A DNA stretch of 64,000 bases from a virus. Positions 6,001 through 30,223 of this stretch are shown piece by piece. Under the pieces are notes generated by a model. The model was not told the origin of the DNA and searched no databases. It saw nothing but the letters and a program-made list of their open reading frames with translations. The position numbers and the translations under genes were made by a program. Numbering within the stretch: the stretch's first letter is position 1; every line of letters starts with the position of its first letter. The stretch spans positions 117,868 through 181,867 of IMG/VR virus record IMGVR_UViG_3300017818_000007. One strand, written 5' to 3'.

Positions 6001-9000
6001 TTGTAGACCAATTAGTTTCACCATCAGTACCGGCCGGTCTAGGTTCAAGTCTTAGTTTATCGCAAACAACTAATACATTAGTTGCTGGTGCTCCGTATGC
6101 TTCTTTTGTAAAAACAATTACAGATCCTGAAAAGCCAAGATTTAATACTGTTGGCTTAACAGGTACGGCTAGCAGTTATACAAAGCAAGGCGTTGTTAAA
6201 CTGTCAACATATAATTCTTTAACAAACATTTATGATCCAACACATATTATTGCAAGTCCAAGACCTGCAAACAACGAAGAATTTGGTTCAAGTGTTGCTG
6301 TAAGTGATACAAGAATGGTAGTTGGTGCTCCTGGCAGAGCAAATAACGCTGGCGGAGTATATGTTTATACAAAAGGAACAAACGGTTGGGATCTAAATGC
6401 AGAATGGGAATTAACTGCTCCATCTGATCATCCTAATGATAGATTTGGTGAAAAACTTACAGCCTCAATCGACATGAGTATACTTGCAGTTTCTGCAAGG
6501 AACAAAGAACTTGAGTCTGATAGTACAACAGTGGATACCGGTGCTGTTTACATTTACTATTGGGACGGTACAGGTTATAATTTAATTCAAACTATTGATG
6601 CAACAACAGTTGACACTCTTAGCAAATCAGATTTATTTGGATCTTCGTTGTCGTTAAGTAGAAATGGCGATGTGCTTGTTATTGGTGCACCATTAAATGA
6701 TGATGACAGTATTAACCAAGGTGCTGTTTATGTATTTGAAAGACAGACACAAGGTGACTCAACGGTTGGTTATACATATAAACAAAAACTTACAAGTCCA
6801 ACTAACCTAAGTGGCGAGCAGTTTGGTAGCAATGTTTCAGTTAACCCAGACGGTTTAAGTTTTGCAGTTGCAGGTAAAGGCGGATCGAATAGTGCTATTA
6901 CTTTGTTTGATAATAACGAAACTTCTTTTGATGCTAAATCAACATCGTTTGTAGATACAGAAACAGGTACTGGTAGTGTTTATACATTTACAAAGTTAGG
7001 CACAACATATGTATTTGGACAAAAACTTTCAAGCAACGATTTACAATCAAATGATGCATTTGGTACAGGTCTCGATTTTAGTACAACAAGTTTATATGTA
7101 GGTGCACCATACTTTACATACAATGGCAACGACACTGGTATGCTATTTGTGTATCAGAAAGAAGCGTCAGCAGGCTGGAATACTCTAAGACAACAAGACA
7201 GTTTAACTGATCCGTTTAGTGTTGAGAAGGTAATGACGTATCGTACAGATTCACAAACTGTTGTTGATTTCTTAGAGACTATTGATCCTATAAAAGGAAA
7301 AATACCTTACATTGCAGAAACAGAAATATCTTATAAGAGTGCAAAAGATCCTGCAATTTACACAACAAGTGATCGTGGCCTTAATGTTGATCCAGATACA
7401 AACTGGGGTGCAACACACGTAGGACAAATTTGGTGGGATCTAAGTACTGTAAGATATGTTTGGTACGAGCAAGGCGATGTTGAATTTAGAAAAAATAACT
7501 GGGGTGGATTGTTCCCAGGGTCAACTATTGATATTTACGAATGGGTAGAAAGCGATCTAAGTCCAGAAGAATGGAATAATATTTCAGATACAACAGAAGG
7601 TATTGCGGCAGGATTTAGTGGACAATCAAAATACGATAACAATACTTTTGTATTAAAGCGTGTCTATGACACAGCAACAAATAACTTTGTTAATAGATAT
7701 TATTATTGGGTTAAAAATAATGTACTTTTACCACAACGTGTTAGTACACAAATTGCTGTTGGTCTAAGTGAAAAGATTGCAGTTGATACACGTCGTTTGC
7801 CTGCAAACGAAATCGCAAACGTAATTGCAGATCCTAAAGGATATGGTATCAAATCGTTGCAACTTTTAGACACTAACAGTTTTAGTCTTACCAATATTAA
7901 AACAAGTTTAAGTGATACTGACGTAAGTTTAAATGTACAATATAAGAAAGTAAAAACTAATATTCCAAATCATAATAGTTGGTTATTATTAGATGAACAA
8001 CAAAGAGACAAAATTGACAATCCATTGTTAATTAAAAAACTTTATGACAGTTTAGTAGGTTTTGATGATGCAGGTAATACAGTACCAGACTCACAACTTC
8101 CTGTACAGAAAAAATATGGTTTACAAATTAGACCAAGACAAAGTATGTTTGTTAATAGACTGGGTGCATTAGAAACACTGTTTACATACACAAATAACTT
8201 ACTTGCAAAAAGTAGAATCGTTGATGAAAAAGATCTAAGTGGTTTATTTGAATCAGACCCTCAGCCAACACTAATTAGTGGGCGTTATGATGTTAAGGTT
8301 GATGAGTTTAATGATTTAGATAATATTAAAACACAGGATTTAGAACAAGCAACTGCTACTGCAACTATTGTTAACGGTAGAGTTAAATCTGTAGAAATTA
8401 CAAATCCTGGGTTTGGTTATGTTAATCCGCCAAACATTGAAATTACAACAGAAGGTTGGGGAGCAAAATTCCAATCAACTATTGATGCTCAAGGAAGAGT
8501 CACATCAATTGAAGTGTTAAAAGAAGGACGAGATTATACAAACGGTGCTATTAGAATTAGACCATTCAAAGTTCTTGTTGATGCTGATAGTACAGCAAAC
8601 AACTATTGGACAATGTATGAATGGAATATTGCATCTGAAGAATGGATTAGAACAAACACACAAACATATGATGTTAATAGATTTTGGAAATATAAAGATT
8701 ATGTTGTTGAAGGATTTGATGTTGACAGCATTATAGACTTTAAAGTTGCAGAGCCTTATCTATTAAAAACAATTACTCCTGCAACAGGACAACTAGTTGA
8801 GGTAGCAAATGTTGGCGATGGAAACAAAATTGTTCTTAGAAAAGTTGAAGCAAATGGTACTTGGAATAATAATTATGATATTTTGTTCAAAGCAAATAGC
8901 ACAATTGAATTTGATTCGTCTATCTATGATTACACAGGACTAAACTTTGGCTTTGCTGGCGCAGAAAACTTTGATATTAACTTATATGATGAACAGCCAA

Positions 9001-12000
9001 CACAAGAAACACGAGTTATTTTAGAACAACTGTATTCAAACATTTTTGTTGATGACTTAAAATATGCTTGGAATGAATTTTTGTTTACAGCAATACGTTA
9101 TGCAATCAGTGAGCAAACATTTACTGACTGGGCATTTAAAACAAGTTTAATCAGTGTTAAGAATAATTTAGGCGGCTTTACTAAAAAGATTAATTATAAT
9201 CTTGACGATCCTGGAAATATACAATCTTACGTTGAAGAAATTAAACCATATAGTGTCACAATTAAAGACATGATTACAAGTTATAATAATCGTGAGCCTA
9301 GCAGTATTTTTACTACTGACTTTGATTTGCCAAGCCGTTATAACGAAACCAAAGAAGAGTTTGAAGTATTAAACGAAACAAGCGAAGATATAACAACTGA
9401 GCCATTTAATCAATGGTTTGAAAATTATAAATTTAATGTTGACAGCATTGAAATTGCTGAAGCAGGAGACGGGTATACACAAAGACCGATTGTTGTAATT
9501 AGCGGCGGAAGAGAAGATAAACCTGCTATTGTACAAACAACACCGTTTAGGGTTCTTACTACTACAGACTATGACAACTTGTATGTGTACGTTAATACTA
9601 CAAGTGTTCCGGATCACTTCTTTAATACAACAAATGTAGTTTCACAAAATCTTGTTTATCAGATTCCAAGATTCCCAAGTGTTCCTGAAGTTAAAGTTCC
9701 AACACCACTAGGTGCTATTGGTGTAGCAGTTAACGGAGTAAGTATTTTTAATCCTAGTTCTGCAGTCACAGAATTACTTAATGGTACAACATATACTGTA
9801 AATGCAGTATTCAGTCATGAAGAATTAGGTATTGATGACGGTTCAGGTCATCCGCAAGAAGATGGAATTTACCATTACCATAGCGATCCTACCTTTATGT
9901 ACACTAAGGATCCAGAGAATCACAGTCCAATATTAGGATACGCCTTTGACGGTTTCCCAATTTATGGACCGTACGGTTTTATTGCTACAAATGATAAAAC
10001 AGTTAAATTAATTAAATCAAGTTATAAACTTAGAACAACACCTCGTGCAGATGGTAGTATGCCAACTGGAAGATACAACGAGGATTATGAGTTTGTACAA
10101 GGACACGGAGACCTAGACGAAAACAACGGTAGGTTTATTCAAACACCAGAATATCCACAAGGAACATACGCTTACTTTATTACAGTTGACGAGCAAGATG
10201 ACGGCACGTTTGAACCAGCGTTCCCATACATTGTTGGACCTCATTATCACGGTAATCCGTTGTTGCCTAATGGCAACGGTAAAATGCCACAAAGCGGAAA
10301 CATTAATGCAACAGCAACAGCATATATCAGTAGAAACAAAGTAAACAAAATTGTTGTTGAAAATCCAGGCGCTGGTTATGTAAGTGCTCCAACAGTCACA
10401 ATTACTGGTGGAGGTAATACAACATCAACAGCAAAAGCAGTTGCAATTCTTGAAAACAATAAAGTTAGAACAAATAAAACTGAACTTAAATTTGATAGAA
10501 TTGGCTCAACAGGTATTATTGCTGATGAAGAATACGTTGATACATATACCGCTAAGTCAGGACAAGTTGTTTATAAACTAACATACTTGCCTACGTTAGA
10601 TAAAAGAGATTTTGTTATCAGTGTGAATAATGAAGCAATTTTTGTTGAAAACTTTGATGTAAGCATTGAAACATTAACTGATAAAACTTATAAAAAACAA
10701 GTTGGCCATGTTGTATTAAAAACATTGCCAAAAGAGCGTTCAACAGTCACAATTACATATAAGAAAAATGTAAAACTAATGAACGCTATTGATAGAATTA
10801 ATTATTTCTATGAACCAACAGCAGGTATGCCTGGTAAAGATCCGGCACAATTAATGTATGGTATCGAATATCCGGGCGTTAAAGTACAAGGTTTAGACTT
10901 TGGTGTTAGTGTTGGGTGGGACGGCCTTCCATGGTTTAGTCATGGTTGGGATACGTTCTCAGGAGGCAACACAGATTATGCTTTCCGTGCAGACGGAGTT
11001 GCAACATCGTTTACATTACCTTATGCACCTAAACAGGATGAAAAGATTAACGTTTATTTTGATGGTGTAAGGCAAGATCCAAATAACACTCCAACTATTG
11101 TTGGCGACGGGAACACAACAGCATTTACTTTAAATGCAACACCAGCAGATGGTGTGTTGGTAGTATTCCGTCCAGAAGATTCAGATGGTAGTGTTGTTCC
11201 AACAGATGTAAACAACTTAGACACAATTATACAAGGTGGTAATTTATCTTATAGTACTGCAACTGGACAAACACCAGAAGAAATTAGTTTACAAGGCGAC
11301 GGGTTTGTCACACCAGATACGTCACACGCACCTGAAGAAGTTGTACCAGGTCAAATATTTGATTCGCTGGCTATGAAAGTTTATAATGCTCCAGCAGATG
11401 GTTCTCCAATTATTGACATTACAAGACATTGGGGAGATGGAAGTGAAACTGAGTTTACGTTTAACAAATATCCCGGAACAACAGACAGTATTATAGTCAC
11501 AGTAGGGCCTAGTAATCCTACACCAACAGATACTGCAACAAGATCAAGTTCTTATAAAGTTTTAGGAACTGACTACACTGTTGACTATGCTAATAAAAAA
11601 ATTACACTTACATCAGCACCAACTGATGGACAGTTAGTCACAATTACAACTTTAAATGTTGGCGGTAGCGAGATACTTGAAAAAGAAGATTATGTTGACT
11701 CAGGTGATAGTACTATTGAGTTTGTTTTAACAAGTAAGTACGAAGATGTTAAAAGTGCGTTTGTCACAGTTAATGGTGTAAAACAAGACTATGCTATCTA
11801 TGAAGATACTGATAGTGGTAGTGCAAAAATTGTTTTAACAAATCCTCCAAACGATATGACAGATGCCGTGACACAGATTACTGCATTAAGCGGATTAGAA
11901 AAAACATACAGTGAAGTAGTCACAGACGTACACGAAGTACAAAGCAACGACGGTCTTACATATGACTTATCTCAGGTACCTGGAAATATTGAACCGTTCC

Positions 12001-13472
12001 ATGCAATGGTAGTAGTTGAAGCAAATGGTAGAAGATTGAGAGCACCAGACACAATTTATTATGTTGCTAACGGAGTGACTCTAGATTATCTAGCAAGTCA
12101 AGATCCAGAGTATCCAGCATTTAGTTTGGCACTTGGTGAATTAGAAGTTCATCAGAACGGTGTTAGACTTGAACCAATTTCAGATTATCAGTTTAATACT
12201 GCAACAAACCTTGTCACTTTCTATCAAGGTAGATTACAAGCAGGCGATGTAATTGCAATCACAGTATTACGTGGTCATGATTATGAAATTAGAAAACACG
12301 ATGATGACGATAGTTCAAATGCAGGATATATCAAAATTATTAACAACAGTGCAGAAGATAGTACCGGAGTTGGTGAAGGAACAATTCTTAAAATTACAAG
12401 TTTCACAAATCACGATGCTAACCTAATGCGTAAAGAAGTATTTGCAGGAAATACAGGCGGAAATTATAAGTTAAGCAGAAAAGCAATTGATGTTGCATAT
12501 GTTTGGGTAGAGTTGAATAATATTCCTCTTGTAGCAGATGCAGATTACAAAATTTTAGATGATGGATATACCGTTTATATTGACAACAAGTTTTCACAAA
12601 AATCAACTGATAGAGTAGTAATAACTTCGTTTAGTGAAGATAGAACACACGACGGTATTGGATTTACTATTTTTGAAGATATGCTTAACAGACATCACTT
12701 TAAGAGAATTAGTAAACAAGATACTACTGTGTTAACTACAAAATTATTGTTAGGTGATACAGAAATTTCTGTACAAGACGCAAGTTTCTTTGATACGCCA
12801 AGTCCAGAAAAACGTGTTCCTGGCGTAATATTTGTTGGTAAAGAAAGAATAGAATTTTACAAAATTAACGGTAATAAGTTATCACAGATAACAAGAGGTA
12901 CACTTGGTACAGGAATTGCTGAACATCCAGTTGGAACACAGGTGTTTGATGCAGGACCAACACAAACTGTACCATATAAAGAATCATTAAGCGTATATGA
13001 AATAATTGTACGTGATGGATTACCAAACGGTAAATCAGTACACGTTTTGGAAACAATTAACTTCTCAGGAAGTGTTAATGCACACGATCAAGTAGAAGTT
13101 TATGTAGGGGGCAGAAAACTACAAAAACCAACAGTTTCTGCTAATCCAATTACAAAACACGATCCATCTATCGCTTATGATAGTGAAGAAACAAACAGCC
13201 TAGGTGTTGCTAGTGATGTAGTTCAACTACCAGAATTTACTATTGAACCAGTTGAAGATAGTACAGCAAAAGGCTATTATAAACTAATATTAAGGGACGA
13301 ACCAGAGAACGGAACCGAGATTAAAGTGGTGCAAAAGCAGGGTCATGTATGGTATACAGCAGGTGTTAGCACTGCATCTAACGGTGTCACACTACAAAGA
13401 GCAGAATCTCCGCAGGCTAATTTCTTGCTAGAGAGGTCCTCTGGTTTACCTATAATAAATATTAAGGAATAG
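3..13472 (+). CDS. Giant virion structural protein (baseplate wedge/tail-associated), 5'-truncated; contains an N-terminal cupredoxin-like motif, FG-GAP-like beta-propeller repeats and an inserted YHYH domain
   Basis: Frame is open from nt 3 (PQGPDPVSISGDPGN...), so the track start at 93 is not the true start. Motifs: GHPF...YYACQYHQSM; repeated (F/L)GSS(V/L)...(V/I)GAP...GAVY units (~5850-7160); YHYH motif with GYAFDGFPIYGPYG (~9560-10270). Lies directly upstream of the tail-fibre genes. Confidence 0.8.
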   Translation, partial: PQGPDPVSISGDPGNTQSEYSVSNSGENSFVFTPNGFSENPTVILYRGGTYKFKVNAQGHPFFIKTANTVGIGDQYNNGVENNGAEQGTITFTVPVDAPDLLYYACQYHQSMQGVLEIRNTSDDLSIDVEEDIISKATFKSANGVQLTNGMKVNFVGDVLPTKYRNKNWYVEGVGESIVLIDETELDTPELYAKNEEYEFDVDPFDDTPYDDTENSPLTAEYITINRSSKDKNPWSRYNRWVHKDVIELSAEYNNTSPVLDENYRAVRPIIEFKPNLKLVNFGTNGIGNIDLIDTDTKDAMSDVEGSFGYHVDEVLLRKGMRVIFNADPDITVKGKVYEVDFVEHNGVKRVHLEEVYEPLVNDSVVATSGETHQGSSWHFDGTSWINGQQKTILNQSPLFDLYDSAGNSFADTDYYFSSTFNGNKLASYKIGTGSDDPVLGFPIAYQNINNVGDITFEFNWDDGLFTYQEGTTQKTVDTASGLVKDYAKDKFISGWELVKGKQTVQRILQVVDTVIDTDTVAVNAINQPHKYDLDIVVEYNGKTYKETTDFEKVIDRERQIYELKFNSIIPQGTRITLKIKTNQKPNENGFYEPPINLTNNSENNDLKTFTLGSVSDHFKTIFQNNSFITGNSVGPNNSRDISEIHLDGSRYVKHKGSVLPAIMFLVQENLNFVNSMRKNANDYNFFKDQFIEKAGEIERTTSVANDVDKILYELGSNKITTSPYFYSDMAGFGRKVERLEFEVKNGTQNVFAINNAFDTTKVSDRAVYVYLNDVQLYLDADYEFDAVDNTVTIKKELSVGDKVKVNDYDTTGNVIPHSPTKLGLYPAYVPEIFVDSSYINPTKVIQGHDGSITKAYNDERDELILELEKRIYNNLKVKYNRDVFDILKEQPGHYRPDAYTRDEFNKVLRTDFGYWKSLFDVDFETNNVSQSGDAFTYNFNTMINLQDQKLPGNWRAIYKDYFDTDRPHTHPWEMLGITLKPTWWDEQYGEAPYTSGNNLLWNDIERGLVRDPNGTKIYPAYARPNLSKNLPVDEYGELIDPSKINIVKAIFITEIKNAWKFGDEGPAETAWRKSSWFPFALQVAVGLTKPAQYFGSLFDVNQNEITPSGNVVYADNGKIFSLKEAKIKDLRFNNERFLGLGYHVPIVEYIKSFDKDVKETFYDYLTNTSSNLTYKLGGFANKNRLRVLAESSNPNTADNSIFLPSENYQLTLRKSNPIRNVRVSGIIVEKTAKGFLVRGYDNIKPWFSIYKPKHGKNDIAVNVGGKQAKFVIWDSEKFYGKGQIVEFGGEYYRVSINHTSTETFDNSKFTKLGELPVTGGTEVAKAKAFESKITEVSYGTVYPRAQEVYDVILGYQEYLKEQGFVFDIFQRETATIQDWDLSGREFLYWTTQNWAEGSVISLSPFADSLSFEYKYATVDNVLNSFYEYSILSANGTPLPKDNISIVRGSGKFNITTKNTQRGIFFAVLNLVQWEHIVVFDDKSQFGDVIYDQEAGYRQKRIKLVGFKTSEWDGDYVSPGFVFDEAVVADYIDGKDYNLGDVVRHKSKFYSAKKFLPATKAFNFSEWVFIGDKPVAELLPNLDYKASSYEDFYSLESENFDSETTKLSQHLTGYQKRLYLDNMVRDDIAQYKFYSGFIKEKGTRNSLEKLNRLTIDGTSTDLSITDNWAIKIGSLGSGSTTKELEVVLSEKDNVENPQAYEFVTAKTSNSDTNTIELLSSDLTLKPDNFSVDVWKNFDTTQDGVSLNSIQKIPTAGFARLDDVDHTVFNSEDLLTDTTLPTLNEGASVWVARDKSDTWNIYRLTANRARLVQTEDNQVSVDNGTITLHTNIPHGLKEGDTIVIKQFDNQINGTHLVNSVLGLTSFTITTELLTITLAEDSASGTILELLPVRVSSPDKINDIKDVAEFAEGTKIWADDVSDGTWRVFEKTKAYAENQVQLIASDAKTYASTVKYGDQGRTIVVGNPGQTVEGAVLILRRKFNTDISTLEGSSGFNISESLVDQLVSPSVPAGLGSSLSLSQTTNTLVAGAPYASFVKTITDPEKPRFNTVGLTGTASSYTKQGVVKLSTYNSLTNIYDPTHIIASPRPANNEEFGSSVAVSDTRMVVGAPGRANNAGGVYVYTKGTNGWDLNAEWELTAPSDHPNDRFGEKLTASIDMSILAVSARNKELESDSTTVDTGAVYIYYWDGTGYNLIQTIDATTVDTLSKSDLFGSSLSLSRNGDVLVIGAPLNDDDSINQGAVYVFERQTQGDSTVGYTYKQKLTSPTNLSGEQFGSNVSVNPDGLSFAVAGKGGSNSAITLFDNNETSFDAKSTSFVDTETGTGSVYTFTKLGTTYVFGQKLSSNDLQSNDAFGTGLDFSTTSLYVGAPYFTYNGNDTGMLFVYQKEASAGWNTLRQQDSLTDPFSVEKVMTYRTDSQTVVDFLETIDPIKGKIPYIAETEISYKSAKDPAIYTTSDRGLNVDPDTNWGATHVGQIWWDLSTVRYVWYEQGDVEFRKNNWGGLFPGSTIDIYEWVESDLSPEEWNNISDTTEGIAAGFSGQSKYDNNTFVLKRVYDTATNNFVNRYYYWVKNNVLLPQRVSTQIAVGLSEKIAVDTRRLPANEIANVIADPKGYGIKSLQLLDTNSFSLTNIKTSLSDTDVSLNVQYKKVKTNIPNHNSWLLLDEQQRDKIDNPLLIKKLYDSLVGFDDAGNTVPDSQLPVQKKYGLQIRPRQSMFVNRLGALETLFTYTNNLLAKSRIVDEKDLSGLFESDPQPTLISGRYDVKVDEFNDLDNIKTQDLEQATATATIVNGRVKSVEITNPGFGYVNPPNIEITTEGWGAKFQSTIDAQGRVTSIEVLKEGRDYTNGAIRIRPFKVLVDADSTANNYWTMYEWNIASEEWIRTNTQTYDVNRFWKYKDYVVEGFDVDSIIDFKVAEPYLLKTITPATGQLVEVANVGDGNKIVLRKVEANGTWNNNYDILFKANSTIEFDSSIYDYTGLNFGFAGAENFDINLYDEQPTQETRVILEQLYSNIFVDDLKYAWNEFLFTAIRYAISEQTFTDWAFKTSLISVKNNLGGFTKKINYNLDDPGNIQSYVEEIKPYSVTIKDMITSYNNREPSSIFTTDFDLPSRYNETKEEFEVLNETSEDITTEPFNQWFENYKFNVDSIEIAEAGDGYTQRPIVVISGGREDKPAIVQTTPFRVLTTTDYDNLYVYVNTTSVPDHFFNTTNVVSQNLVYQIPRFPSVPEVKVPTPLGAIGVAVNGVSIFNPSSAVTELLNGTTYTVNAVFSHEELGIDDGSGHPQEDGIYHYHSDPTFMYTKDPENHSPILGYAFDGFPIYGPYGFIATNDKTVKLIKSSYKLRTTPRADGSMPTGRYNEDYEFVQGHGDLDENNGRFIQTPEYPQGTYAYFITVDEQDDGTFEPAFPYIVGPHYHGNPLLPNGNGKMPQSGNINATATAYISRNKVNKIVVENPGAGYVSAPTVTITGGGNTTSTAKAVAILENNKVRTNKTELKFDRIGSTGIIADEEYVDTYTAKSGQVVYKLTYLPTLDKRDFVISVNNEAIFVENFDVSIETLTDKTYKKQVGHVVLKTLPKERSTVTITYKKNVKLMNAIDRINYFYEPTAGMPGKDPAQLMYGIEYPGVKVQGLDFGVSVGWDGLPWFSHGWDTFSGGNTDYAFRADGVATSFTLPYAPKQDEKINVYFDGVRQDPNNTPTIVGDGNTTAFTLNATPADGVLVVFRPEDSDGSVVPTDVNNLDTIIQGGNLSYSTATGQTPEEISLQGDGFVTPDTSHAPEEVVPGQIFDSLAMKVYNAPADGSPIIDITRHWGDGSETEFTFNKYPGTTDSIIVTVGPSNPTPTDTATRSSSYKVLGTDYTVDYANKKITLTSAPTDGQLVTITTLNVGGSEILEKEDYVDSGDSTIEFVLTSKYEDVKSAFVTVNGVKQDYAIYEDTDSGSAKIVLTNPPNDMTDAVTQITALSGLEKTYSEVVTDVHEVQSNDGLTYDLSQVPGNIEPFHAMVVVEANGRRLRAPDTIYYVANGVTLDYLASQDPEYPAFSLALGELEVHQNGVRLEPISDYQFNTATNLVTFYQGRLQAGDVIAITVLRGHDYEIRKHDDDDSSNAGYIKIINNSAEDSTGVGEGTILKITSFTNHDANLMRKEVFAGNTGGNYKLSRKAIDVAYVWVELNNIPLVADADYKILDDGYTVYIDNKFSQKSTDRVVITSFSEDRTHDGIGFTIFEDMLNRHHFKRISKQDTTVLTTKLLLGDTEISVQDASFFDTPSPEKRVPGVIFVGKERIEFYKINGNKLSQITRGTLGTGIAEHPVGTQVFDAGPTQTVPYKESLSVYEIIVRDGLPNGKSVHVLETINFSGSVNAHDQVEVYVGGRKLQKPTVSANPITKHDPSIAYDSEETNSLGVASDVVQLPEFTIEPVEDSTAKGYYKLILRDEPENGTEIKVVQKQGHVWYTAGVSTASNGVTLQRAESPQANFLLERSSGLPIINIKE

Positions 13473-25993: not shown

Positions 25994-26302
25994 TTATACA
26001 ATTTTAACTTGGTCGGTTGCAAGAACTGAACAAGCCAAACTAAAATAAGACACTTCTGAAGCATCTTCAAACCCAATTTGGTAAACATTTTCCATTTTAT
26101 TGTCTACCAAATACAGATCTTGAATAATAGCAAACCTTCCATTTAGGTTATTATATATCCAATCTCTAATATTATCAATAGTGTTAGTGTAATTCCATGA
26201 TTCAATTTTGAGACTTAACTTTTCAAAATGAATAGGCATAGTATCTAATTCTCTAATGTCTAAAACATTTAAAGGATTAGGATCCTGAACTAATAACCTC
26301 AT
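25994..26302 (-). CDS. Hypothetical protein (102 aa)
   Basis: Intact ORF with ATGA overlap to the VWA gene. Confidence 0.55.
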   Translation of the reverse strand: MRLLVQDPNPLNVLDIRELDTMPIHFEKLSLKIESWNYTNTIDNIRDWIYNNLNGRFAIIQDLYLVDNKMENVYQIGFEDASEVSYFSLACSVLATDQVKIV

Positions 26303-27579
26303 GCCGCCTCTTTTAAATCATAGTGACAAGTAATACCGTGTGGTGCTTCAATTGATGTATCTGAATGAATAATCCATACAGTTTCACAATAGTTTTCATC
26401 ACCCCAGTTCCACGAATAGCCATCTGTGAACACTAGGAGTTTTCTAGGAGTAATACCTTCGTCCTTCATAAAACGCCAGTTAGCATCAAAGTCTGTACCA
26501 CCACCGCCGTGTAATTCATACTCCTCAATGCTTTCGCCGCTGTCTGGAGTAAAGTCTTGTACATTATACACTTCTGTATCAAAACACCATACTTTAATTT
26601 TATAATCGTCGTATTGATCACAAATGCCTTTTACTTCACTTAAAAAGTCTTGTGCTTCACGTGAACCAATTGAGCCTGACATATCAAGTGCAATACACAA
26701 GTCAATAGTATCATCAAAGTCCATACCAGGCAATACTGCGGAAGTATGCCAACCTTTACGTGAAGGACGCATGAATGAATAGTTGCTCTTAATAGTAGAT
26801 TGAATCTGCTGATTAAGGATTTCTCGCCAGTTCATTTTAGGCTCGGTAAGTTCCTTAATAATACGTTGTACACCTTTAGGAATATTACCAACACCAGCCG
26901 CCTGTGCAGATGAAATCATTGCTTCTTTCATTTCATCACGGATTTTACGTAGTTCTTCTTTTGAGTATGTAGGTTGTCCGCCTTTACCTTTTTTCTTTTT
27001 AGTTTTACCGTTAGGACCTTGGCCTTTACCTTTTTCCCAATCAATATGTTCATCAAGAAGTTTACCTAGTTGATCAAGTTGTTCTTGATCGTACTTTTGG
27101 TAGATGTCATCATACACAGCCTCTGATGCCCAACCATAATATTTAGGATCATGGAATGGTTTAACTTGTGTAATTACTTCACCAATCTTATGACGTACTA
27201 AATCACCGTTAACACAATAGTCGGCGGCGATGTTATAAATTTGTGGTTCACGATCATCACGACGTGTAAAGTGATCATATACACAGTGTAGGATTTCGTG
27301 ACCAAATAAGAACTCAGTTTGTTTTTGTGAAAGTGTTTCTACAAAGTTTTCGTTGTAGTAAAAATTACGACCATCAGTTGCCGCAGTTGCACACCAATCA
27401 GTTGCATCAATAATTTTAAGACGTGTAGCAAGATTACCAAAAAATGGTTGACGAATAAGTAGAGCAATACGAGCAGTTGTTAATTTTTCTAATACTTTTG
27501 CACTATTGATAGAAGGATCTTTTTCATAGATCTTACCATCTATCATTGTTTGTTCTACTGCGGTTGTTTCTTGTGACAT
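26299..27579 (-). CDS. VWA-domain/putative metallopeptidase protein (DUF2201-like MoxR partner)
   Basis: HEILH (HExxH) motif in the N-terminal half; DMSGS MIDAS motif, GGGTDF and VFTDG in the C-terminal half. Confidence 0.85.
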   Translation of the reverse strand: MSQETTAVEQTMIDGKIYEKDPSINSAKVLEKLTTARIALLIRQPFFGNLATRLKIIDATDWCATAATDGRNFYYNENFVETLSQKQTEFLFGHEILHCVYDHFTRRDDREPQIYNIAADYCVNGDLVRHKIGEVITQVKPFHDPKYYGWASEAVYDDIYQKYDQEQLDQLGKLLDEHIDWEKGKGQGPNGKTKKKKGKGGQPTYSKEELRKIRDEMKEAMISSAQAAGVGNIPKGVQRIIKELTEPKMNWREILNQQIQSTIKSNYSFMRPSRKGWHTSAVLPGMDFDDTIDLCIALDMSGSIGSREAQDFLSEVKGICDQYDDYKIKVWCFDTEVYNVQDFTPDSGESIEEYELHGGGGTDFDANWRFMKDEGITPRKLLVFTDGYSWNWGDENYCETVWIIHSDTSIEAPHGITCHYDLKEAA

Positions 27580-27606
27580 ATCTTACTCCTAACTAACTAT
27601 ACTTAT

Positions 27607-27634
27607 AGTATAGCATCATACACGGTTTTGTCAA
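27607..27634 (-). promoter_or_regulatory. sigma70-type promoter for the VWA operon
   Basis: TTGACA-16 nt-TATACT with TG extension. Confidence 0.7.
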
Positions 27635-27635
27635 C

Positions 27636-28211
27636 CTAGAATTTGGCTAAAAATTGGTTTTGCATATCCATTTTGGCTTGCAAATACGAGTAAGATTCTT
27701 CCAATTCGAGTGGAGAATATTCCCCTGGCTTAAACACATATTCTACTGCTGAACTTGGAAGTTTTGAAGTTTTAAGACCATCTCCAGCATCAATTACATA
27801 CGGAAGTAAGTCTGTTTTGGATATAATTGCTACTGCATCTTTATCGCAAATTAAAAGAAACTCTGCATATGATTCCGGAAGTGTTCGTCCTTCACTACTG
27901 CCACGCGAGTTCATAAGTTGTAGTTCTGCAACGTGTTTTCTTGGTTGTTTCTTTTTAGAAGTAAAAAGACTACCATCAGTGTATTTCATTTCGATTGTAA
28001 TACCGTTAGGTCCAATGTGATCAACACCTTCTTCATTTACATATCGTAAATCTTGATTACTAAAAAGTTCTAGTGCTTTTTCAAATAAATCACTTTTATC
28101 AAAACGAAGTTTACGTTCATTTAGTTCGTCACCCACTTGGTCTACAAGTGTCACAAACTTATTCCAATCTACGTTCCATCTTAGCCAATGTGCTAGTTCT
28201 TTTGTATTCAT
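27636..28211 (-). CDS. Putative PD-(D/E)xK restriction-endonuclease-like protein
   Basis: E-x-A...EGVD-x7-IEMK spacing resembles a type II REase catalytic core; no search run. Confidence 0.45.
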   Translation of the reverse strand: MNTKELAHWLRWNVDWNKFVTLVDQVGDELNERKLRFDKSDLFEKALELFSNQDLRYVNEEGVDHIGPNGITIEMKYTDGSLFTSKKKQPRKHVAELQLMNSRGSSEGRTLPESYAEFLLICDKDAVAIISKTDLLPYVIDAGDGLKTSKLPSSAVEYVFKPGEYSPLELEESYSYLQAKMDMQNQFLAKF

Positions 28212-29026
28212 TTTTTAGAATTAATCCATTTAATTACTTGTTCGCTGTTCCCTGCGAAAATTCTATCTGAGTGTTCGGCAATCAAAGCATTCATTTCATC
28301 TAGATGATTTTCTCCTGCTTCACCGTCTACTTGTACAAAGAACAATTTTTTATCATTGTGTTTATCACAGTATTTTTTTGACTCTTGAATAAAAGATTTT
28401 GATTCACCTACTTGATGTACAGAAGTCACAGATCCTTCTGGACCACTGTATTTTAAAAACCCATAAGCATCTAAACTAGGAATATATGCGTCTACACTTC
28501 TTGCAAACTTTTTGTTTTCAACATCTTTTTTATTTTGTATCTCACCGTTAGCAACAGTGTATTCACCGTTAACTGGTTTATCAACAGCAATACCTGTATA
28601 CTTACGAAGCATTTCTAACTGTACATCTTCGTCAATTGATTGTCTTGTTGCGTCTCGACAGTAGTCAATTTGAATCCACGGGTGAGAGTCTAAATATATT
28701 TGTGACATTTTTTTGATGTCTGTAAACGTAATTTTATCTTCGTCACTAATACCTCTGTAAGAACAGTTCTTTGAAATACGTGAAAAGATAGTGTTCATAA
28801 CATTAGTGACATTGCGTCTTGTTGGAGTATCAATTGTTTTATCTCGACACTTCCATTTAATTTCGTTTTTAGAATTACGGGTCTTTTCAACTGCTAGTTC
28901 ATTTCCAGCAATTATTTCCCAAATTGATTTATCTTCTATTAGGTTAGATTGATTAGTTGCTTCACGACTTTTAATAATATTGTGAGCACCGTTTGTATTT
29001 TCGATTATGATTTGTTTTGACACCAT
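28208..29026 (-). CDS. Putative restriction-endonuclease-like protein (272 aa)
   Basis: C-terminal RSVDAY...GFLKY..G.S..HQ..E pattern recalls viral REase-like nucleases; weak call. Confidence 0.35.
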   Translation of the reverse strand: MVSKQIIIENTNGAHNIIKSREATNQSNLIEDKSIWEIIAGNELAVEKTRNSKNEIKWKCRDKTIDTPTRRNVTNVMNTIFSRISKNCSYRGISDEDKITFTDIKKMSQIYLDSHPWIQIDYCRDATRQSIDEDVQLEMLRKYTGIAVDKPVNGEYTVANGEIQNKKDVENKKFARSVDAYIPSLDAYGFLKYSGPEGSVTSVHQVGESKSFIQESKKYCDKHNDKKLFFVQVDGEAGENHLDEMNALIAEHSDRIFAGNSEQVIKWINSKK

Positions 29027-29053
29027 AATTCCCCATTTCTTAATTTATAGTAT

Positions 29054-29082
29054 ATTTTAGCAAATTATAATGTAGATGTCAA
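29054..29082 (-). promoter_or_regulatory. sigma70-type promoter for the two nuclease-like genes
   Basis: TTGACA-17 nt-TAAAAT with TG extension. Confidence 0.7.
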
Positions 29083-29102
29083 GTCTTTTGGTAAAATAGA
29101 AT

Positions 29103-29122
29103 GGGGGATCCGAAGATCCCCC
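29103..29122 (-). terminator. Intrinsic terminator after the MoxR gene
   Basis: GGGGGATC-TTCG-GATCCCCC hairpin followed by ATTCTATTTT. Confidence 0.8.
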
Positions 29123-29128
29123 TAGTAG

Positions 29129-30223
29129 TTAGGATGCCATTGCGGCTTGAACATACTTGCCGTATTTGTCATGAAAACGATCAAAGTTTTTAAGATCCTT
29201 TGGACTGAATGGAAGTTTGTAAGTTGTAATTGCTACCCTTACACCCATCACAACAAGTTCAGTTTCAAAGTTATCCATCATAAATCCAAAGAAGTTATCT
29301 GCCATAGCATTCCACCCTTTTTCTTTACGTTTGAACGCTTCTTGAAGTTCATAGCACATTGAAACAGTTAACGAGTACATAGCACTGATATCTGTAGTCT
29401 CCATGCTTTTCACTTTACCGGACAAGATGTCCGTAGGATTTGGCAGTTTTGAAGCAACCTTACGGTGTGCCGCAAACTTTACTGCCAAGCCTTCACCAAC
29501 GGCGCCTGCCACGAGGTCTGTCAACGTGTTTTCTGACAGGTCATCGTCGAGAAGTTCGCTCACGAAACTCCACGAACGTGGAGTAGCAAATGCACGTGAA
29601 CTGCTCTTAGGATCAAAGTCATATAGATCCTGTTTTGCAAAAGAGCAATAACCAACTACATCTGCGTGAATTTTGTTTTCAGTTGCCCACTGCAACCAAT
29701 CTTCAAAGTCTACTCGCATTTCTAAATGCAAGAAACGGTTAGCCAACGGAGCCGGCATACGATAAGTGACACCTTTATCAGTTTCACGATTACCTGCCGC
29801 TACAATCATTACGTTGTCTGGAAGTTTATAAGTACCAACTCTACGATTAAGAACTAGTTGGTATGCCGCCGCTTGTACTGCCGGCGATGCAGAGTTCATT
29901 TCGTCCATAAACAGAACGATATGTTTAAACTGTTTTGCCATTTCTTCGTCTGGAAGTTCTACTGGCGGTGCCCATTTCATTGTATTATCATTGGCCGCGT
30001 AATAAGGCATACCTTTGATATCTGTTGGATCCCACAATGAAAGTCGAATATCAATTAGATGTGAATCTTCAAAACTGTTAGTAATTTGACTAACAATATC
30101 TGATTTACCAATGCCTGGAGGACCCCATAAAAATACTGGACGGCCTTTAGCCATTGCGTGTTTAAGTGCCACTTTCGCTTCGTTTGGAGTGACTGTACGT
30201 GCTTCTGTTGCTTGTGTTGACAT
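29129..30223 (-). CDS. MoxR-family AAA+ ATPase
   Basis: Walker A GPPGIGKS, Walker B LFMDE, AAGNR, PLANRF, ATPRSW. Confidence 0.9.
   Translation of the reverse strand: MSTQATEARTVTPNEAKVALKHAMAKGRPVFLWGPPGIGKSDIVSQITNSFEDSHLIDIRLSLWDPTDIKGMPYYAANDNTMKWAPPVELPDEEMAKQFKHIVLFMDEMNSASPAVQAAAYQLVLNRRVGTYKLPDNVMIVAAGNRETDKGVTYRMPAPLANRFLHLEMRVDFEDWLQWATENKIHADVVGYCSFAKQDLYDFDPKSSSRAFATPRSWSFVSELLDDDLSENTLTDLVAGAVGEGLAVKFAAHRKVASKLPNPTDILSGKVKSMETTDISAMYSLTVSMCYELQEAFKRKEKGWNAMADNFFGFMMDNFETELVVMGVRVAITTYKLPFSPKDLKNFDRFHDKYGKYVQAAMAS

What the first reader, a model, noticed from the sequence alone, without database searches (positions are those of the whole stretch)
27636..29082. Two orphan restriction-endonuclease-like genes with their own promoter, wedged between MoxR and its VWA partner
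Seen: two ORFs (272 and 191 aa, ATGA-coupled) sit between the MoxR terminator and the VWA gene's promoter and have their own sigma70 promoter. No DNA methyltransferase is visible in the window. The 191-aa protein has E...D-x7-EMK spacing and the 272-aa protein has D...LK...Q/E spacing, both like PD-(D/E)xK nucleases. Both genes also obey the AGCT/GCWGC/GTWAC avoidance. Inference: these could be early host-DNA-cutting enzymes whose self-immunity comes from site deletion and/or deazaguanine modification rather than methylation.
Basis: inference. Interest (0 to 1): 0.7.

Follow-up and report, generated by a model that had tools for sequence, protein, structure and literature searches.

The report
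Unguarded phage restriction enzymes, sites purged
An uncultured salt-marsh T4-like phage carries two DNA-cutting restriction enzymes without the usual protective methylases. It appears to stay safe because its whole 182-kb genome contains not one copy of the short sequences (AGCT and GTWAC) that comparison with related phages says these enzymes cut.

Summary
Two ATGA-coupled genes (272 aa and 191 aa, minus strand) lie between the MoxR terminator and the VWA promoter and have their own sigma70-type promoter. The 181,867-bp record has no DNA methyltransferase of the three main Pfam families.

Neither gene is an orphan. Each belongs to an uncatalogued family that is common in aquatic phage contigs. 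Both fold confidently as PD-(D/E)xK restriction endonucleases: the 272-aa protein resembles PspGI, BstEII and Cfr10I; the 191-aa protein resembles NaeI, ThaI and PvuII.

Comparative genomics assigns the target sites.
- **191-aa family and AGCT.** All 36 non-redundant loci with a solitary homolog have zero AGCT (0 of 1783 expected). The 19 loci where a PF01555 or D12 methylase sits beside it have a median observed/expected of 0.07. The 68 loci without the gene have 0.80.
- **272-aa family and GTWAC.** Median observed/expected is about 0.25 in 26 loci with the gene and 1.01 in 97 without. Nearly all homologs have an adjacent, well-conserved methylase. Only this phage and its closest homolog lack it, and both have zero GTWAC.
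- **Close relatives.** Relatives that carry only the 191-aa gene keep normal GTWAC counts.

So these are solitary type II restriction enzymes protected by total site loss. A role as a weapon against host or rival-phage DNA is inferred, not shown. The GCWGC purge has a separate determinant that I could not find.

The parts
29103..29122 (-). Intrinsic terminator hairpin of the upstream MoxR-like gene, followed by a T-run. It insulates the cassette from MoxR transcription.
   Evidence: 8-pair stem, 6 G-C pairs, 4-nt loop, tail ATTCTATTTT. Weak hint: RNA-library contigs of four runs stop at 29133-29158.
29054..29082 (-). Sigma70-type promoter of the two-gene cassette (TTGACA, 17 nt, TAAAAT, extended -10 TG).
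   Evidence: 11 of 12 consensus matches. A consensus match only; not shown to fire.
28208..29026 (-). orfA, 272 aa: solitary type II restriction endonuclease of the alpha (EcoRI/Cfr10I/PspGI-like) class. Inferred site GTWAC. Candidate catalytic residues are D179, K192 and E208, with E133.
   Evidence: AF2 pLDDT 93.9. Foldseek top hit BstEII, E 2e-4. VIA: PspGI Z 8.6, BstEII Z 8.6, Bse634I Z 8.0, Cfr10I Z 7.5. S177, D179 and K192 are invariant in 48 homologs. GTWAC depletion tracks the gene. Homologs have an adjacent PF01555 methylase.
27636..28211 (-). orfB, 191 aa: solitary type II restriction endonuclease of the beta (EcoRV/PvuII/NaeI-like) class. Inferred site AGCT. Catalytic residues E44, D64, E74 and K76. 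Probably a homodimer.
   Evidence: AF2 pLDDT 91.4. VIA: NaeI Z 10.8, ThaI Z 9.8, DpnI Z 9.0. D64, E74 and K76 are invariant in 52 diverse members. AGCT is zero in all 36 solitary-homolog loci. Homologs have adjacent PF01555 or PF02086 methylases. Homodimer model 0.76 against best control 0.24.
27607..27634 (-). Separate sigma70-type promoter of the downstream DUF2201 metallopeptidase/VWA gene. It marks the downstream end of the cassette.
   Evidence: TTGACA, 16 nt, TATACT, 11 of 12 matches, TG extension.
29129..30223 (-). MoxR-like AAA+ ATPase, the upstream flank. In more distant relatives it lies directly beside the VWA gene.
   Evidence: Pfam AAA_3 and AAA_5; phrog_1297 at E 3e-99. Synteny.
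26299..27579 (-). DUF2201_N metallopeptidase plus VWA-like protein, the downstream flank and partner of MoxR.
   Evidence: Pfam PF13203 at 1.4e-37 and PF09967 at 1.1e-15.

Best explanation
orfA and orfB are two independent, active type II restriction endonucleases. Each comes from a phage-borne family that normally travels as a restriction-methylase gene pair.

- orfB (191 aa) is a homodimeric enzyme with an EcoRV/PvuII/NaeI-type core. It recognises AGCT and probably cuts it bluntly.
- orfA (272 aa) is a PspGI/BstEII/Cfr10I-type enzyme. It recognises GTWAC and probably leaves 5' overhangs.

This phage has neither partner methylase. The genome is protected because it contains no target at all: 0 of about 601 expected AGCT and 0 of about 384 expected GTWAC.

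The likely history is a ratchet, and all three stages are seen in relatives. First a phage acquires a restriction-methylase pair. Then selection removes the sites. Once none remain, the methylase is lost.

The cassette is transcribed from its own sigma70-type promoter. The enzymes would then cut any unprotected DNA in the infected cell: the host chromosome, co-infecting phages, or both.

Shown here: the folds, the conserved catalytic residues, the gene-motif covariation, the methylase adjacency in relatives, and the absence of sites and methylases in this record.
Inferred: the cleavage itself, the cut positions, the timing, and the biological target.
For: - **Folds.** The top structural matches of both high-confidence models are almost all restriction endonucleases.
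- **Catalytic residues.** D64, E74 and K76 are invariant in 52 diverse orfB relatives at 25-43% identity. S177, D179 and K192 are invariant, and E208 near-invariant, in 48 orfA relatives. dN/dS is 0.10-0.29.
- **orfB and AGCT.** 48 loci with close homologs all have AGCT = 0. Of 36 loci with distant homologs (31-45% identity, GC 27-53%), 32 are purged or strongly depleted, while GCWGC there is normal or high. Among non-redundant loci, solitary B (n=36) is 0/1783, B plus methylase (n=19) has median observed/expected 0.07, and no B (n=68) has 0.80; Mann-Whitney p = 6e-16.
- **orfA and GTWAC.** The 48 related loci without orfA have normal GTWAC. Loci with orfA homologs have median observed/expected of about 0.25 against 1.01 without; p = 1.8e-10. 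GTSAC is never depleted.
- **Methylases.** Almost every orfA homolog has a PF01555 methylase (SPPY motif) directly downstream, 65-90% identical between loci. Most distant orfB homologs have a PF01555 or D12 methylase beside them. The non-depleted exceptions I checked for orfA (L139, L145) and all four for orfB (L223, L230, L241, L245) carry such a methylase. Every locus without one has exactly zero sites.
- **Escape footprints.** At each GTWAC of a relative, this phage has a change, often a single base: commonly W to S at the centre, or C to T at position 5. GTSAC is 1.88 per kb here against 0.59-0.82 per kb in five related records.
- **Dimer.** The orfB homodimer model scores 0.76 against a best control of 0.24. 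That mark was reached by 20 of 30 proteins solved as pairs of one chain and by 1 of 23 solved as single chains. The runs agree in at least 94% of contacts and partner pLDDT is at least 87. Similar enzymes are solved as dimers, so the pass may reflect likeness.
- **Insertion.** In relatives with MoxR at 76% identity or less, MoxR and VWA are adjacent.
Against: - No enzyme was assayed. Specificity rests on correlation, and related loci are not fully independent.
- Some loci without orfB are also AGCT-free or nearly so (L073, L098, L112, L122, L130). The 185-kb record G001 has AGCT 0/616 but no orfB. G001 does lack the region where orfB sits in a sister group, so this is explicable, but it is not resolved.
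- Several phages that keep the methylase are still strongly depleted. Depletion alone therefore does not prove that the enzyme acts on its own genome.
- Host restriction can also purge short sites from phages (Rusinov 2018, PMC6286503).
- The record is about 50% complete by CheckV, so a methylase could be unassembled.
- Structural Z-scores for orfA (at most 8.6) are only moderate by the tool's own calibration.
- RNA-library contigs cannot show that the genes are transcribed.
Confidence: 0.77

Rival explanations
1. Restriction-modification systems of the host drive the loss of AGCT and GTWAC. The two genes are nucleases with some other role, such as repair, recombination or homing, and only coincide with the purge.
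For: Avoidance of host restriction sites by phages is widespread (PMC6286503, found). Some loci lacking orfB are also AGCT-free. This genome also lacks GCWGC, RCATGY and WGCGCW with no gene assigned. The MoxR-VWA slot is a hot spot for HNH and GIY-YIG-like genes.
Against: The purged motif changes with the gene. Relatives at 75-82% nucleotide identity that carry orfB but not orfA keep normal GTWAC. The associations recur in unrelated lineages with GC from 27% to 53%. Relatives of both genes sit in restriction-then-methylase gene pairs. Zero sites coincide exactly with absence of the methylase. Pattern scans found no relatives in about 186,000 prokaryotic species genomes, though this is a weak test.
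Confidence: 0.08
2. The genes are leftovers of selfish restriction-modification modules. Once the sites had gone, the methylase was lost and the endonuclease persists, active or decaying, without benefit to the phage.
For: They sit in an insertion hot spot beside mobile HNH genes. orfB changes position between phage groups. orfA is present in only one lineage of the clade.
Against: Both show purifying selection, with dN/dS of 0.10-0.29 and invariant catalytic residues. Solitary orfB is retained across a whole clade and in at least eight independent lineages. Keeping a genome at exactly zero sites implies continuing selection by an active enzyme. The cassette has its own strong consensus promoter.
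Confidence: 0.1
3. orfB is a modification-dependent enzyme of the type IIM/IV kind, like DpnI, NhoI and Eco15I. It would cut methylated DNA of competitors rather than unmodified AGCT.
For: DpnI, Eco15I and NhoI are among the best structural matches, with Z of 8.0-9.0.
Against: Relatives sit directly beside DNA methylases in one operon, which would be suicidal for a methyl-dependent enzyme of the same site. The phage has no methylase, yet it has purged unmodified AGCT. The matches to NaeI and ThaI, which cut unmodified DNA, score higher at Z 10.8 and 9.8. The aligned part of DpnI is residues 1-163 only, which from my own knowledge is its catalytic domain without the methyl-reading winged helix.
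Confidence: 0.03
4. The proteins are non-cutting, sequence-specific DNA binders derived from restriction enzymes, for example regulators or replication factors.
For: No cleavage has been shown. Degenerate PD-(D/E)xK proteins are known.
Against: The full catalytic sets are invariant across both families. A mere binder would not force every site out of a 182-kb genome, nor need a partner methylase in relatives.
Confidence: 0.02

Closest known systems
PspGI / EcoRII / Ecl18kI, BstEII, and the Cfr10I-Bse634I-NgoMIV-SgrAI group of type II restriction endonucleases
   Same: These are the best structural matches of orfA over nearly its whole length: PspGI Z 8.6 with 171 residues aligned, BstEII Z 8.6 with 208, Bse634I Z 8.0, Cfr10I Z 7.5. 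PspGI (CCWGG) and BstEII (GGTNACC) also read interrupted five-base palindromes. From published work on this group, recalled and not tested here, the acidic residue of the (D/E)xK triad is replaced and a glutamate from the following helix takes its place. The invariant D179...F190-x-K192...E208 of orfA fits that pattern.
   Different: There is no detectable sequence similarity: Pfam, PDB sequence and profile searches are all empty. The inferred site GTWAC is not one I know for any characterised endonuclease. GTWAC was listed as a methylated motif with no match among known methyltransferase motifs in REBASE (Hiraoka 2022, PMC8919816). Here the enzyme stands without a methylase.
NaeI, ThaI, PvuII and EcoRV (beta-class blunt-cutting type II endonucleases), and AluI as the classical AGCT enzyme
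   Same: orfB shares the core fold: NaeI Z 10.8, ThaI Z 9.8 over 168 residues, PvuII about 6, EcoRV about 5.5. It has the canonical E...D-x9-ExK catalytic set and is predicted to form a symmetric homodimer. The inferred site AGCT is that of AluI and is the core of PvuII's CAGCTG.
   Different: No sequence family matches it in Pfam, NCBIfam or PDB. I had no AluI sequence by reference, so its relation to AluI is untested. The partner methylases of relatives are PF01555 with a DPPY motif, or D12 type. M.AluI, from my own knowledge, makes 5-methylcytosine.
PacI of Pseudomonas alcaligenes: a solitary restriction endonuclease in a genome without sites
   Same: An active type II endonuclease with no methylase, tolerated because the carrier genome has no recognition site. 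This is cited in Ershova 2012 (PMC3488263).
   Different: PacI is a bacterial enzyme with an 8-bp AT-only site, which would be rare in a GC-rich genome. Here two enzymes with 4-bp and 5-bp sites are carried by an AT-rich virus. About 600 and 380 expected sites had to be avoided, and the change is visible as single-base escapes relative to relatives.
Chlorovirus restriction-modification systems and phage T4 EndoII/EndoIV (virus enzymes that destroy host DNA)
   Same: These are virus-encoded nucleases that degrade host DNA while the virus's own DNA is immune. This rests on my own knowledge and is the proposed role here.
   Different: Chloroviruses protect themselves with cognate methylases, and T4 with hydroxymethylcytosine. 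This phage appears to protect itself by having no sites.

Membership tests
PD-(D/E)xK nuclease superfamily | Alpha-beta-beta-beta-alpha-beta core fold | tested here: met
   AF2 models have pLDDT 93.9 and 91.4. The top Foldseek and VIA matches are nearly all PD-(D/E)xK restriction enzymes.
PD-(D/E)xK nuclease superfamily | Conserved catalytic acidic residues and a lysine on strands 2 and 3 | tested here: met
   orfB: E44, D64, E74 and K76, with D64, E74 and K76 invariant in 52 members. orfA: D179 and K192 invariant and E208 in 45 of 48 members. The (D/E) position is F190, so orfA meets this only in the Cfr10I-type variant form, which is inferred. The geometry was not inspected because no coordinates were available.
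Type II restriction-modification system (endonuclease component) | A cognate DNA methyltransferase gene is linked to the endonuclease gene | tested here: not met
   In this genome no PF01555, PF00145 or PF02086 match exists in 181,867 bp. The feature is met in relatives. Nearly all orfA homologs and most distant orfB homologs have an adjacent PF01555 or PF02086 gene. The families therefore belong to this class, but this copy is solitary.
Type II restriction-modification system (endonuclease component) | Sequence-specific double-strand cleavage at or near a short palindrome | not testable with these tools
   Indirect evidence only: AGCT and GTWAC depletion covaries with gene presence.
Type IIP endonuclease | A homodimer acts on a palindromic site | tested here: met
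   Model evidence only. The orfB two-copy model scores 0.76 against a best control of 0.24. That mark was reached by 20 of 30 solved homomers and 1 of 23 solved monomers. The runs share at least 94% of contacts and pLDDT is at least 87. The pass may reflect likeness to solved dimers. orfA was not tested.
Cfr10I/PspGI-like ('CCGG-family') endonucleases | Shared recognition and catalytic architecture, with Z well above background | tested here: inconclusive
   Best Z is 8.6, which the tool's calibration calls middling. No sequence signal.
Methyl-dependent type IIM/IV enzymes (DpnI, NhoI, Eco15I) | Needs a modified target, and is not paired with a methylase of the same site | tested here: not met
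   Relatives are operon partners of DNA methylases. The carrier genome has purged unmodified AGCT. The biochemistry is untested.
Homing endonuclease (PD-(D/E)xK type, such as I-Ssp6803I) | Sporadic, mobile gene with a long target in the allele that lacks the endonuclease | tested here: inconclusive
   The slot is a hot spot for HNH and GIY-YIG-like genes, and I-Ssp6803I appears at Z 6.1. Against membership, orfB is fixed throughout its clade, pairs with methylases elsewhere, and tracks a 4-bp motif genome-wide.
Any curated protein family (Pfam-A, PHROGs, PADLOC, NCBIfam) | A profile match | tested here: not met
   No Pfam hit at E up to 1, and no PADLOC hit. PHROGs gave only a chance-level hit at E 0.069. 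NCBIfam gave nothing meaningful for 52 family members.

The most novel reading that the evidence does not exclude
Aquatic phages widely carry two uncatalogued restriction-enzyme families and pass through a ratchet. They begin with a restriction-methylase pair, then lose sites progressively, and finally lose the methylase. What remains is an unguarded endonuclease, safe only because its 4-5-bp site has been erased from a genome of about 180 kb or more. The phage can then use it against any normal DNA in the cell, whether host or rival phage. On this reading orfA would be the first endonuclease known for GTWAC, and orfB a new AGCT-cutting family with no detectable sequence match to any catalogued family. 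The abundant RGCY methylation reported in marine myovirus-like genomes (PMC8919816) could be a counter-measure to the AGCT enzyme.
Probability: 0.55. Interest if true: 0.85.

Novelty: new variant of a known kind. Interest (0 to 1): 0.76.

Why it matters
Type II restriction enzymes are usually seen as bacterial defences, made safe by a partner methylase. This case points to viruses using them the other way round, with the safety provided by rewriting the virus's own genome rather than by methylation.

If confirmed, four things follow.
- It would explain complete short-motif purges in phage genomes that are normally put down to host restriction.
- It would add a mechanism for host-DNA destruction or exclusion of rival phages in abundant marine and estuarine myoviruses.
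- It would document an evolutionary route from a restriction-modification pair to a lone endonuclease.
- It would supply two new enzyme families. One has a site (GTWAC) not available among characterised enzymes as far as I know, which has practical value.

It also gives a general method: the specificity of an uncharacterised phage endonuclease can be read from the motif that vanishes with it.

Tried and rejected
**Searches that found nothing**
- Sequence searches of both proteins against Pfam, PHROGs, PADLOC, NCBIfam and PDB, as single sequences and as profiles, gave nothing usable.
- Cultured-phage records (INPHARED) gave no DNA or protein match.
- Pattern scans of about 186,000 prokaryotic species genomes found no relative of either family. 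This is weak evidence that the families are virus-specific.

As a result, source names and the long contigs of the closest orfA homologs could not be read.

**GCWGC determinant**
- I compared whole records: G000 and G001 (GCWGC-free), G004 (GCWGC-only purge), and G002, G003 and G005 (GCWGC present).
- No ORF fitted the pattern of being shared by all the purged records and absent from the others.
- GCWGC is not tied to orfB. Loci with orfB plus a methylase have GCWGC at about 1.5 times expectation. GCWGC-only and AGCT-only purges both exist.

**Other checks**
- The 192-aa gene that replaces orfB in L070 and L073 is not a hidden homolog (hhalign probability 0.09).
- Metatranscriptome contigs from four salt-marsh runs cover orfA and orfB only in thin pieces. 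They cannot show transcription, strand or level, and DNA carry-over is possible.
- I considered an orfA-orfB heteromer, like the two-subunit enzymes BbvCI and BslI, and dropped it without a fold test. The two genes occur independently: 48 loci have orfB alone and about 60 have orfA alone.
- I recalled PF09491 as an AluI family. It is RE_AlwI, so no claim about AluI's family is made.
- The supplement of PMC8919816 is not held, so which genome carried methylated GTWAC is unknown.
Full report
**1. What is there**

On the minus strand, orfA (28208..29026, 272 aa) and orfB (27636..28211, 191 aa) overlap by ATGA. Upstream lies a MoxR-like AAA+ ATPase gene (29129..30223). Downstream lies a DUF2201 metallopeptidase/VWA gene (26299..27579).

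A G+C-rich hairpin with a T-run (29122-29103) follows MoxR. After it comes a near-consensus promoter: TTGACA, 17 nt, TAAAAT with a TG extension (29082-29054). The VWA gene has its own promoter at 27634-27607. The only slip is that the orfB motif is D64-x9-E74-M-K76, not x7.

The window is the last 64 kb of a 181,867-bp linear virus record that CheckV estimates at about 50% complete. Earlier notes of this scan call it an uncultured marine T4-like phage with a dpdA/7-deazaguanine gene set, which I did not re-test. Near-identical DNA occurs in at least 11 salt-marsh metagenome runs, so it is a real, recurring population.

**2. The motif purge is real and absolute**

The whole record has 0 AGCT (about 601 expected from base composition and about 420 from a maximal-order Markov model). 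It has 0 GCWGC (123 expected) and 0 GTWAC (384 expected). By contrast, GCSGC occurs 248 times and GTSAC 342 times. RCATGY (0 of 150) and WGCGCW (0 of 79) are absent too.

**3. The proteins are restriction-endonuclease folds of uncatalogued families**

Neither protein matches Pfam, PHROGs, PADLOC or PDB sequences, but neither is an orphan.
- orfA has 61 homologs and orfB has 74 in marine and freshwater metagenomes.
- A profile of orfB finds 350 clusters at 50% identity.

AlphaFold models built on these alignments are confident, with pLDDT 93.9 and 91.4.
- orfA's best matches are BstEII (Foldseek E 2e-4), then by VIA PspGI (Z 8.6, 171 aligned), BstEII (Z 8.6, 208 aligned), Bse634I (8.0), Cfr10I and BsoBI (7.5) and SgrAI (6.6). 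These Z-scores are moderate by the tool's own calibration, but the list is dominated by one class of enzyme.
- orfB's best matches are NaeI (Z 10.8), ThaI (9.8 over 168 of 191 residues), DpnI (9.0), Eco15I and NhoI (8.0-8.5), SwaI, SfiI, PvuII and EcoRV. This is the blunt-cutting EcoRV-like class.

Catalytic residues are conserved.
- In 52 diverse orfB relatives (25-43% identity), D64, E74, K76 and N101 are invariant and E44 is nearly so.
- In 48 unique orfA relatives, N28, Q129, Q136, S177, D179, K192 and G198 are invariant. E133, F190, Q205 and E208 are nearly so.
- The arrangement D179...F190-x-K192...E208 resembles the Cfr10I/NgoMIV/PspGI variant of the motif, in which a glutamate from the next helix completes the site. 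That comparison rests on my own knowledge of the published work. I could not inspect coordinates.

Pairwise dN/dS is 0.10-0.29, although dS is near saturation. A two-copy model of orfB gives a symmetric interface built from the C-terminal helix and helices 18-50. It scores 0.76 against a best control of 0.24. That mark was reached by 20 of 30 solved homomers and 1 of 23 solved monomers. The runs share at least 94% of contacts and pLDDT is at least 87. Similar enzymes are solved as dimers, so the pass may reflect likeness.

**4. Natural experiment for orfA: GTWAC**

48 IMG/VR loci carry an orfB homolog (55-87% identity) in the same MoxR-orfB-VWA arrangement but have no orfA. All of them have AGCT = 0 and GCWGC = 0, yet they have 9-45 GTWAC each, which is normal density.

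The closest are 75-82% identical in DNA. At every GTWAC in these relatives the window has a change. It is often a single base: commonly W to S at the centre, or C to T at position 5. Consistent with this, GTSAC is 1.88 per kb here against 0.59-0.82 per kb in five related records.

Conversely, 63 loci from IMG/VR and metagenomes carry orfA homologs at 26-73% identity. Most are depleted in GTWAC: for example 0/24, 2/40, 3/44, 2/42, 0/16 and 0/16. GTSAC in the same loci is normal.

Across 123 non-redundant loci of at least 4 kb, median GTWAC observed/expected is about 0.25 with the gene (n=26) and 1.01 without it (n=97). Mann-Whitney p = 1.8e-10.

**5. orfA's relatives are halves of restriction-modification pairs**

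Nearly every orfA homolog is followed at once by a PF01555 DNA methylase that is 65-90% identical between loci. It carries an SPPY motif near the N terminus, which is typical of N4-cytosine enzymes.

The clearest loci with normal GTWAC density (L139 at 59 observed/41 expected, L145 at 23/23) have this methylase; L172, at 22/44, has it too. Only two carriers lack it anywhere in the DNA at hand: this phage (0/384) and L137, which holds the closest homolog at 73% identity (0/24).

GTWAC has been reported as a methylated motif in marine metagenome-assembled genomes with no match among known methyltransferase motifs in REBASE (Hiraoka et al. 2022, PMC8919816).

**6. Natural experiment for orfB: AGCT, not GCWGC**

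In relatives whose MoxR is 76% identical or less, MoxR and VWA are directly adjacent. Most of these have normal AGCT and GCWGC counts, for example 42 observed/43 expected and 19/9. The cassette is therefore an insertion.

AGCT-only and GCWGC-only purges both exist (L119 and L130 against L101, L106 and L109; whole records). So the two motifs have separate causes.

36 further loci carry distant orfB homologs (31-45% identity, GC 27-53%). Of these, 32 are purged or strongly depleted in AGCT: for example 0/41, 0/49, 3/70, 0/68, 1/78, 0/71, 1/64 and 0/69. GCWGC in the same loci is normal or high, for example 43/12 and 47/12.

Most of these homologs have a gene of about 288 aa with a DPPY motif directly downstream. 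Seven of the eight I tested are PF01555 and one is D12 class. L050 has a methylase on both sides.

The four non-depleted exceptions (L223, L230, L241, L245) all have such a methylase. Every locus without one has AGCT exactly zero.

| Non-redundant loci | n | AGCT |
|---|---|---|
| Solitary orfB | 36 | 0 observed of 1783 expected |
| orfB plus methylase | 19 | median observed/expected 0.07 (183 of 1055) |
| No orfB | 68 | median observed/expected 0.80 |

Mann-Whitney p = 6e-16. A blunt-cutter fold also fits AG/CT better than it fits an odd-length site, but that is only an inference.

**7. Exceptions and caveats**

Ten loci without orfB are also AGCT-poor.

The largest exception is record G001 (185 kb), with AGCT 0/616, GCWGC 0/128 and no orfB. 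It covers only the equivalent of G000 positions 4.3-154 kb. In a sister group (L214-L220, some from the same sample) orfB sits among homologs of G000 genes at 154.5-175.5 kb, which is exactly the part G001 lacks. That is a plausible explanation, not a proven one.

Other caveats:
- Loci are phylogenetically related, so the p-values overstate independence. However, the solitary-zero pattern recurs in at least eight lineages of different GC content.
- No cleavage was measured.
- The record is incomplete.
- Host restriction can purge sites too (PMC6286503).

**8. Context of the slot**

Between MoxR and orfB, relatives carry:
- an HNH endonuclease gene (29 loci);
- a weak GIY-YIG-like gene paired with a 375-aa unknown;
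- three other unknown families;
- or nothing at all.

Only this phage has orfA there. The site is an insertion hot spot for nuclease genes. orfB has also moved within the genome in other groups.

**9. Mechanism proposed**

Three states are observed:
- restriction-methylase pairs with normal site density;
- pairs with strong depletion;
- lone endonucleases with zero sites.

Together they suggest a ratchet: acquisition of a pair, then selection against sites, then loss of the now useless methylase. Selection against sites would arise plausibly because fast-replicating phage DNA outruns methylation. That step is inferred.

A lone endonuclease expressed from its own sigma70-type promoter would cut any unmodified AGCT or GTWAC DNA in the cell. 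The targets would be the host chromosome, rival phages, or both. Timing and target are inferred.

RNA-library contigs touch both genes only thinly and cannot show expression. Their stop at 29133-29158 in four runs is a weak hint that the MoxR terminator works.

Deazaguanine modification is not needed for self-immunity, because no sites remain.

**10. Comparison and novelty**

The enzymology is that of ordinary type II restriction endonucleases. Three precedents exist:
- a solitary endonuclease tolerated by a site-free genome (PacI, cited in PMC3488263);
- virus-borne restriction systems in chloroviruses (my own knowledge);
- virus nucleases that destroy host DNA, as in T4 (my own knowledge).

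What I could not find in the literature searched is a phage carrying lone type II enzymes for 4-bp and 5-bp sites with a complete purge of its own genome. I also found neither of these two families described, nor any endonuclease for GTWAC. I rate it a new variant of a known kind.

This stretch was also noted in an overlapping window of this scan (e1-5813144).

Noticed in passing
whole record G000 (window 1-64000 included); also G001 and G004: Besides AGCT, GCWGC and GTWAC, the genome has zero RCATGY (150 expected), zero WGCGCW (79 expected) and zero ACGCGT (20 expected). G001 shares all of these except that GTWAC is normal and ACGCGT occurs once. The 36-kb record G004 shares GCWGC, RCATGY and WGCGCW. 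No responsible gene was found, which suggests further unguarded endonucleases or host pressure.
   Followed up: partly
window 3-13472 (+): A single open reading frame of more than 4489 aa runs off the start of the window. It is a giant protein and I did not examine it.
   Followed up: no
L001-L078, between the MoxR and orfB homologs: The slot occupied here by orfA is a hot spot in relatives. It holds an HNH endonuclease (29 loci), a weak GIY-YIG-like gene paired with a 375-384-aa unknown, unknown families of about 205, 215 and 255 aa, or nothing.
   Followed up: partly
L070:2796-3371 and L073:7103-7681: In two relatives a 192-aa protein unrelated to orfB (hhalign probability 0.09) sits in orfB's place between MoxR and VWA, yet AGCT and GCWGC are still absent from these loci.
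   Followed up: partly
L136:315-1337 and L233:10642-11703: In some orfB-methylase systems a 340-354-aa gene with no Pfam match lies between the endonuclease and the methylase. It could be a second subunit or a second enzyme.
   Followed up: no
window 29133-29617: In four salt-marsh RNA libraries, contigs covering the 3' part of the MoxR gene have far higher depth (42-159) than anything on orfA, orfB or VWA (0-7). They end just before the terminator hairpin. Contig depth is a poor measure, so this is only a hint.
   Followed up: partly
L005-L008 against window 26299-30223: orfB is only 78-79% identical in protein to its homologs in the closest relatives, while the flanking MoxR (95%) and VWA (93-94%) are much closer. 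orfB either evolves faster or has been exchanged by recombination.
   Followed up: no
G000 and G001 whole records: GCSGC is about twice as dense (1.36-1.58 per kb) as in four related records (0.44-0.72 per kb). This parallels the excess of GTSAC and looks like the footprint of W-to-S escapes from GCWGC. However, G004, which is also GCWGC-free, does not show it.
   Followed up: partly
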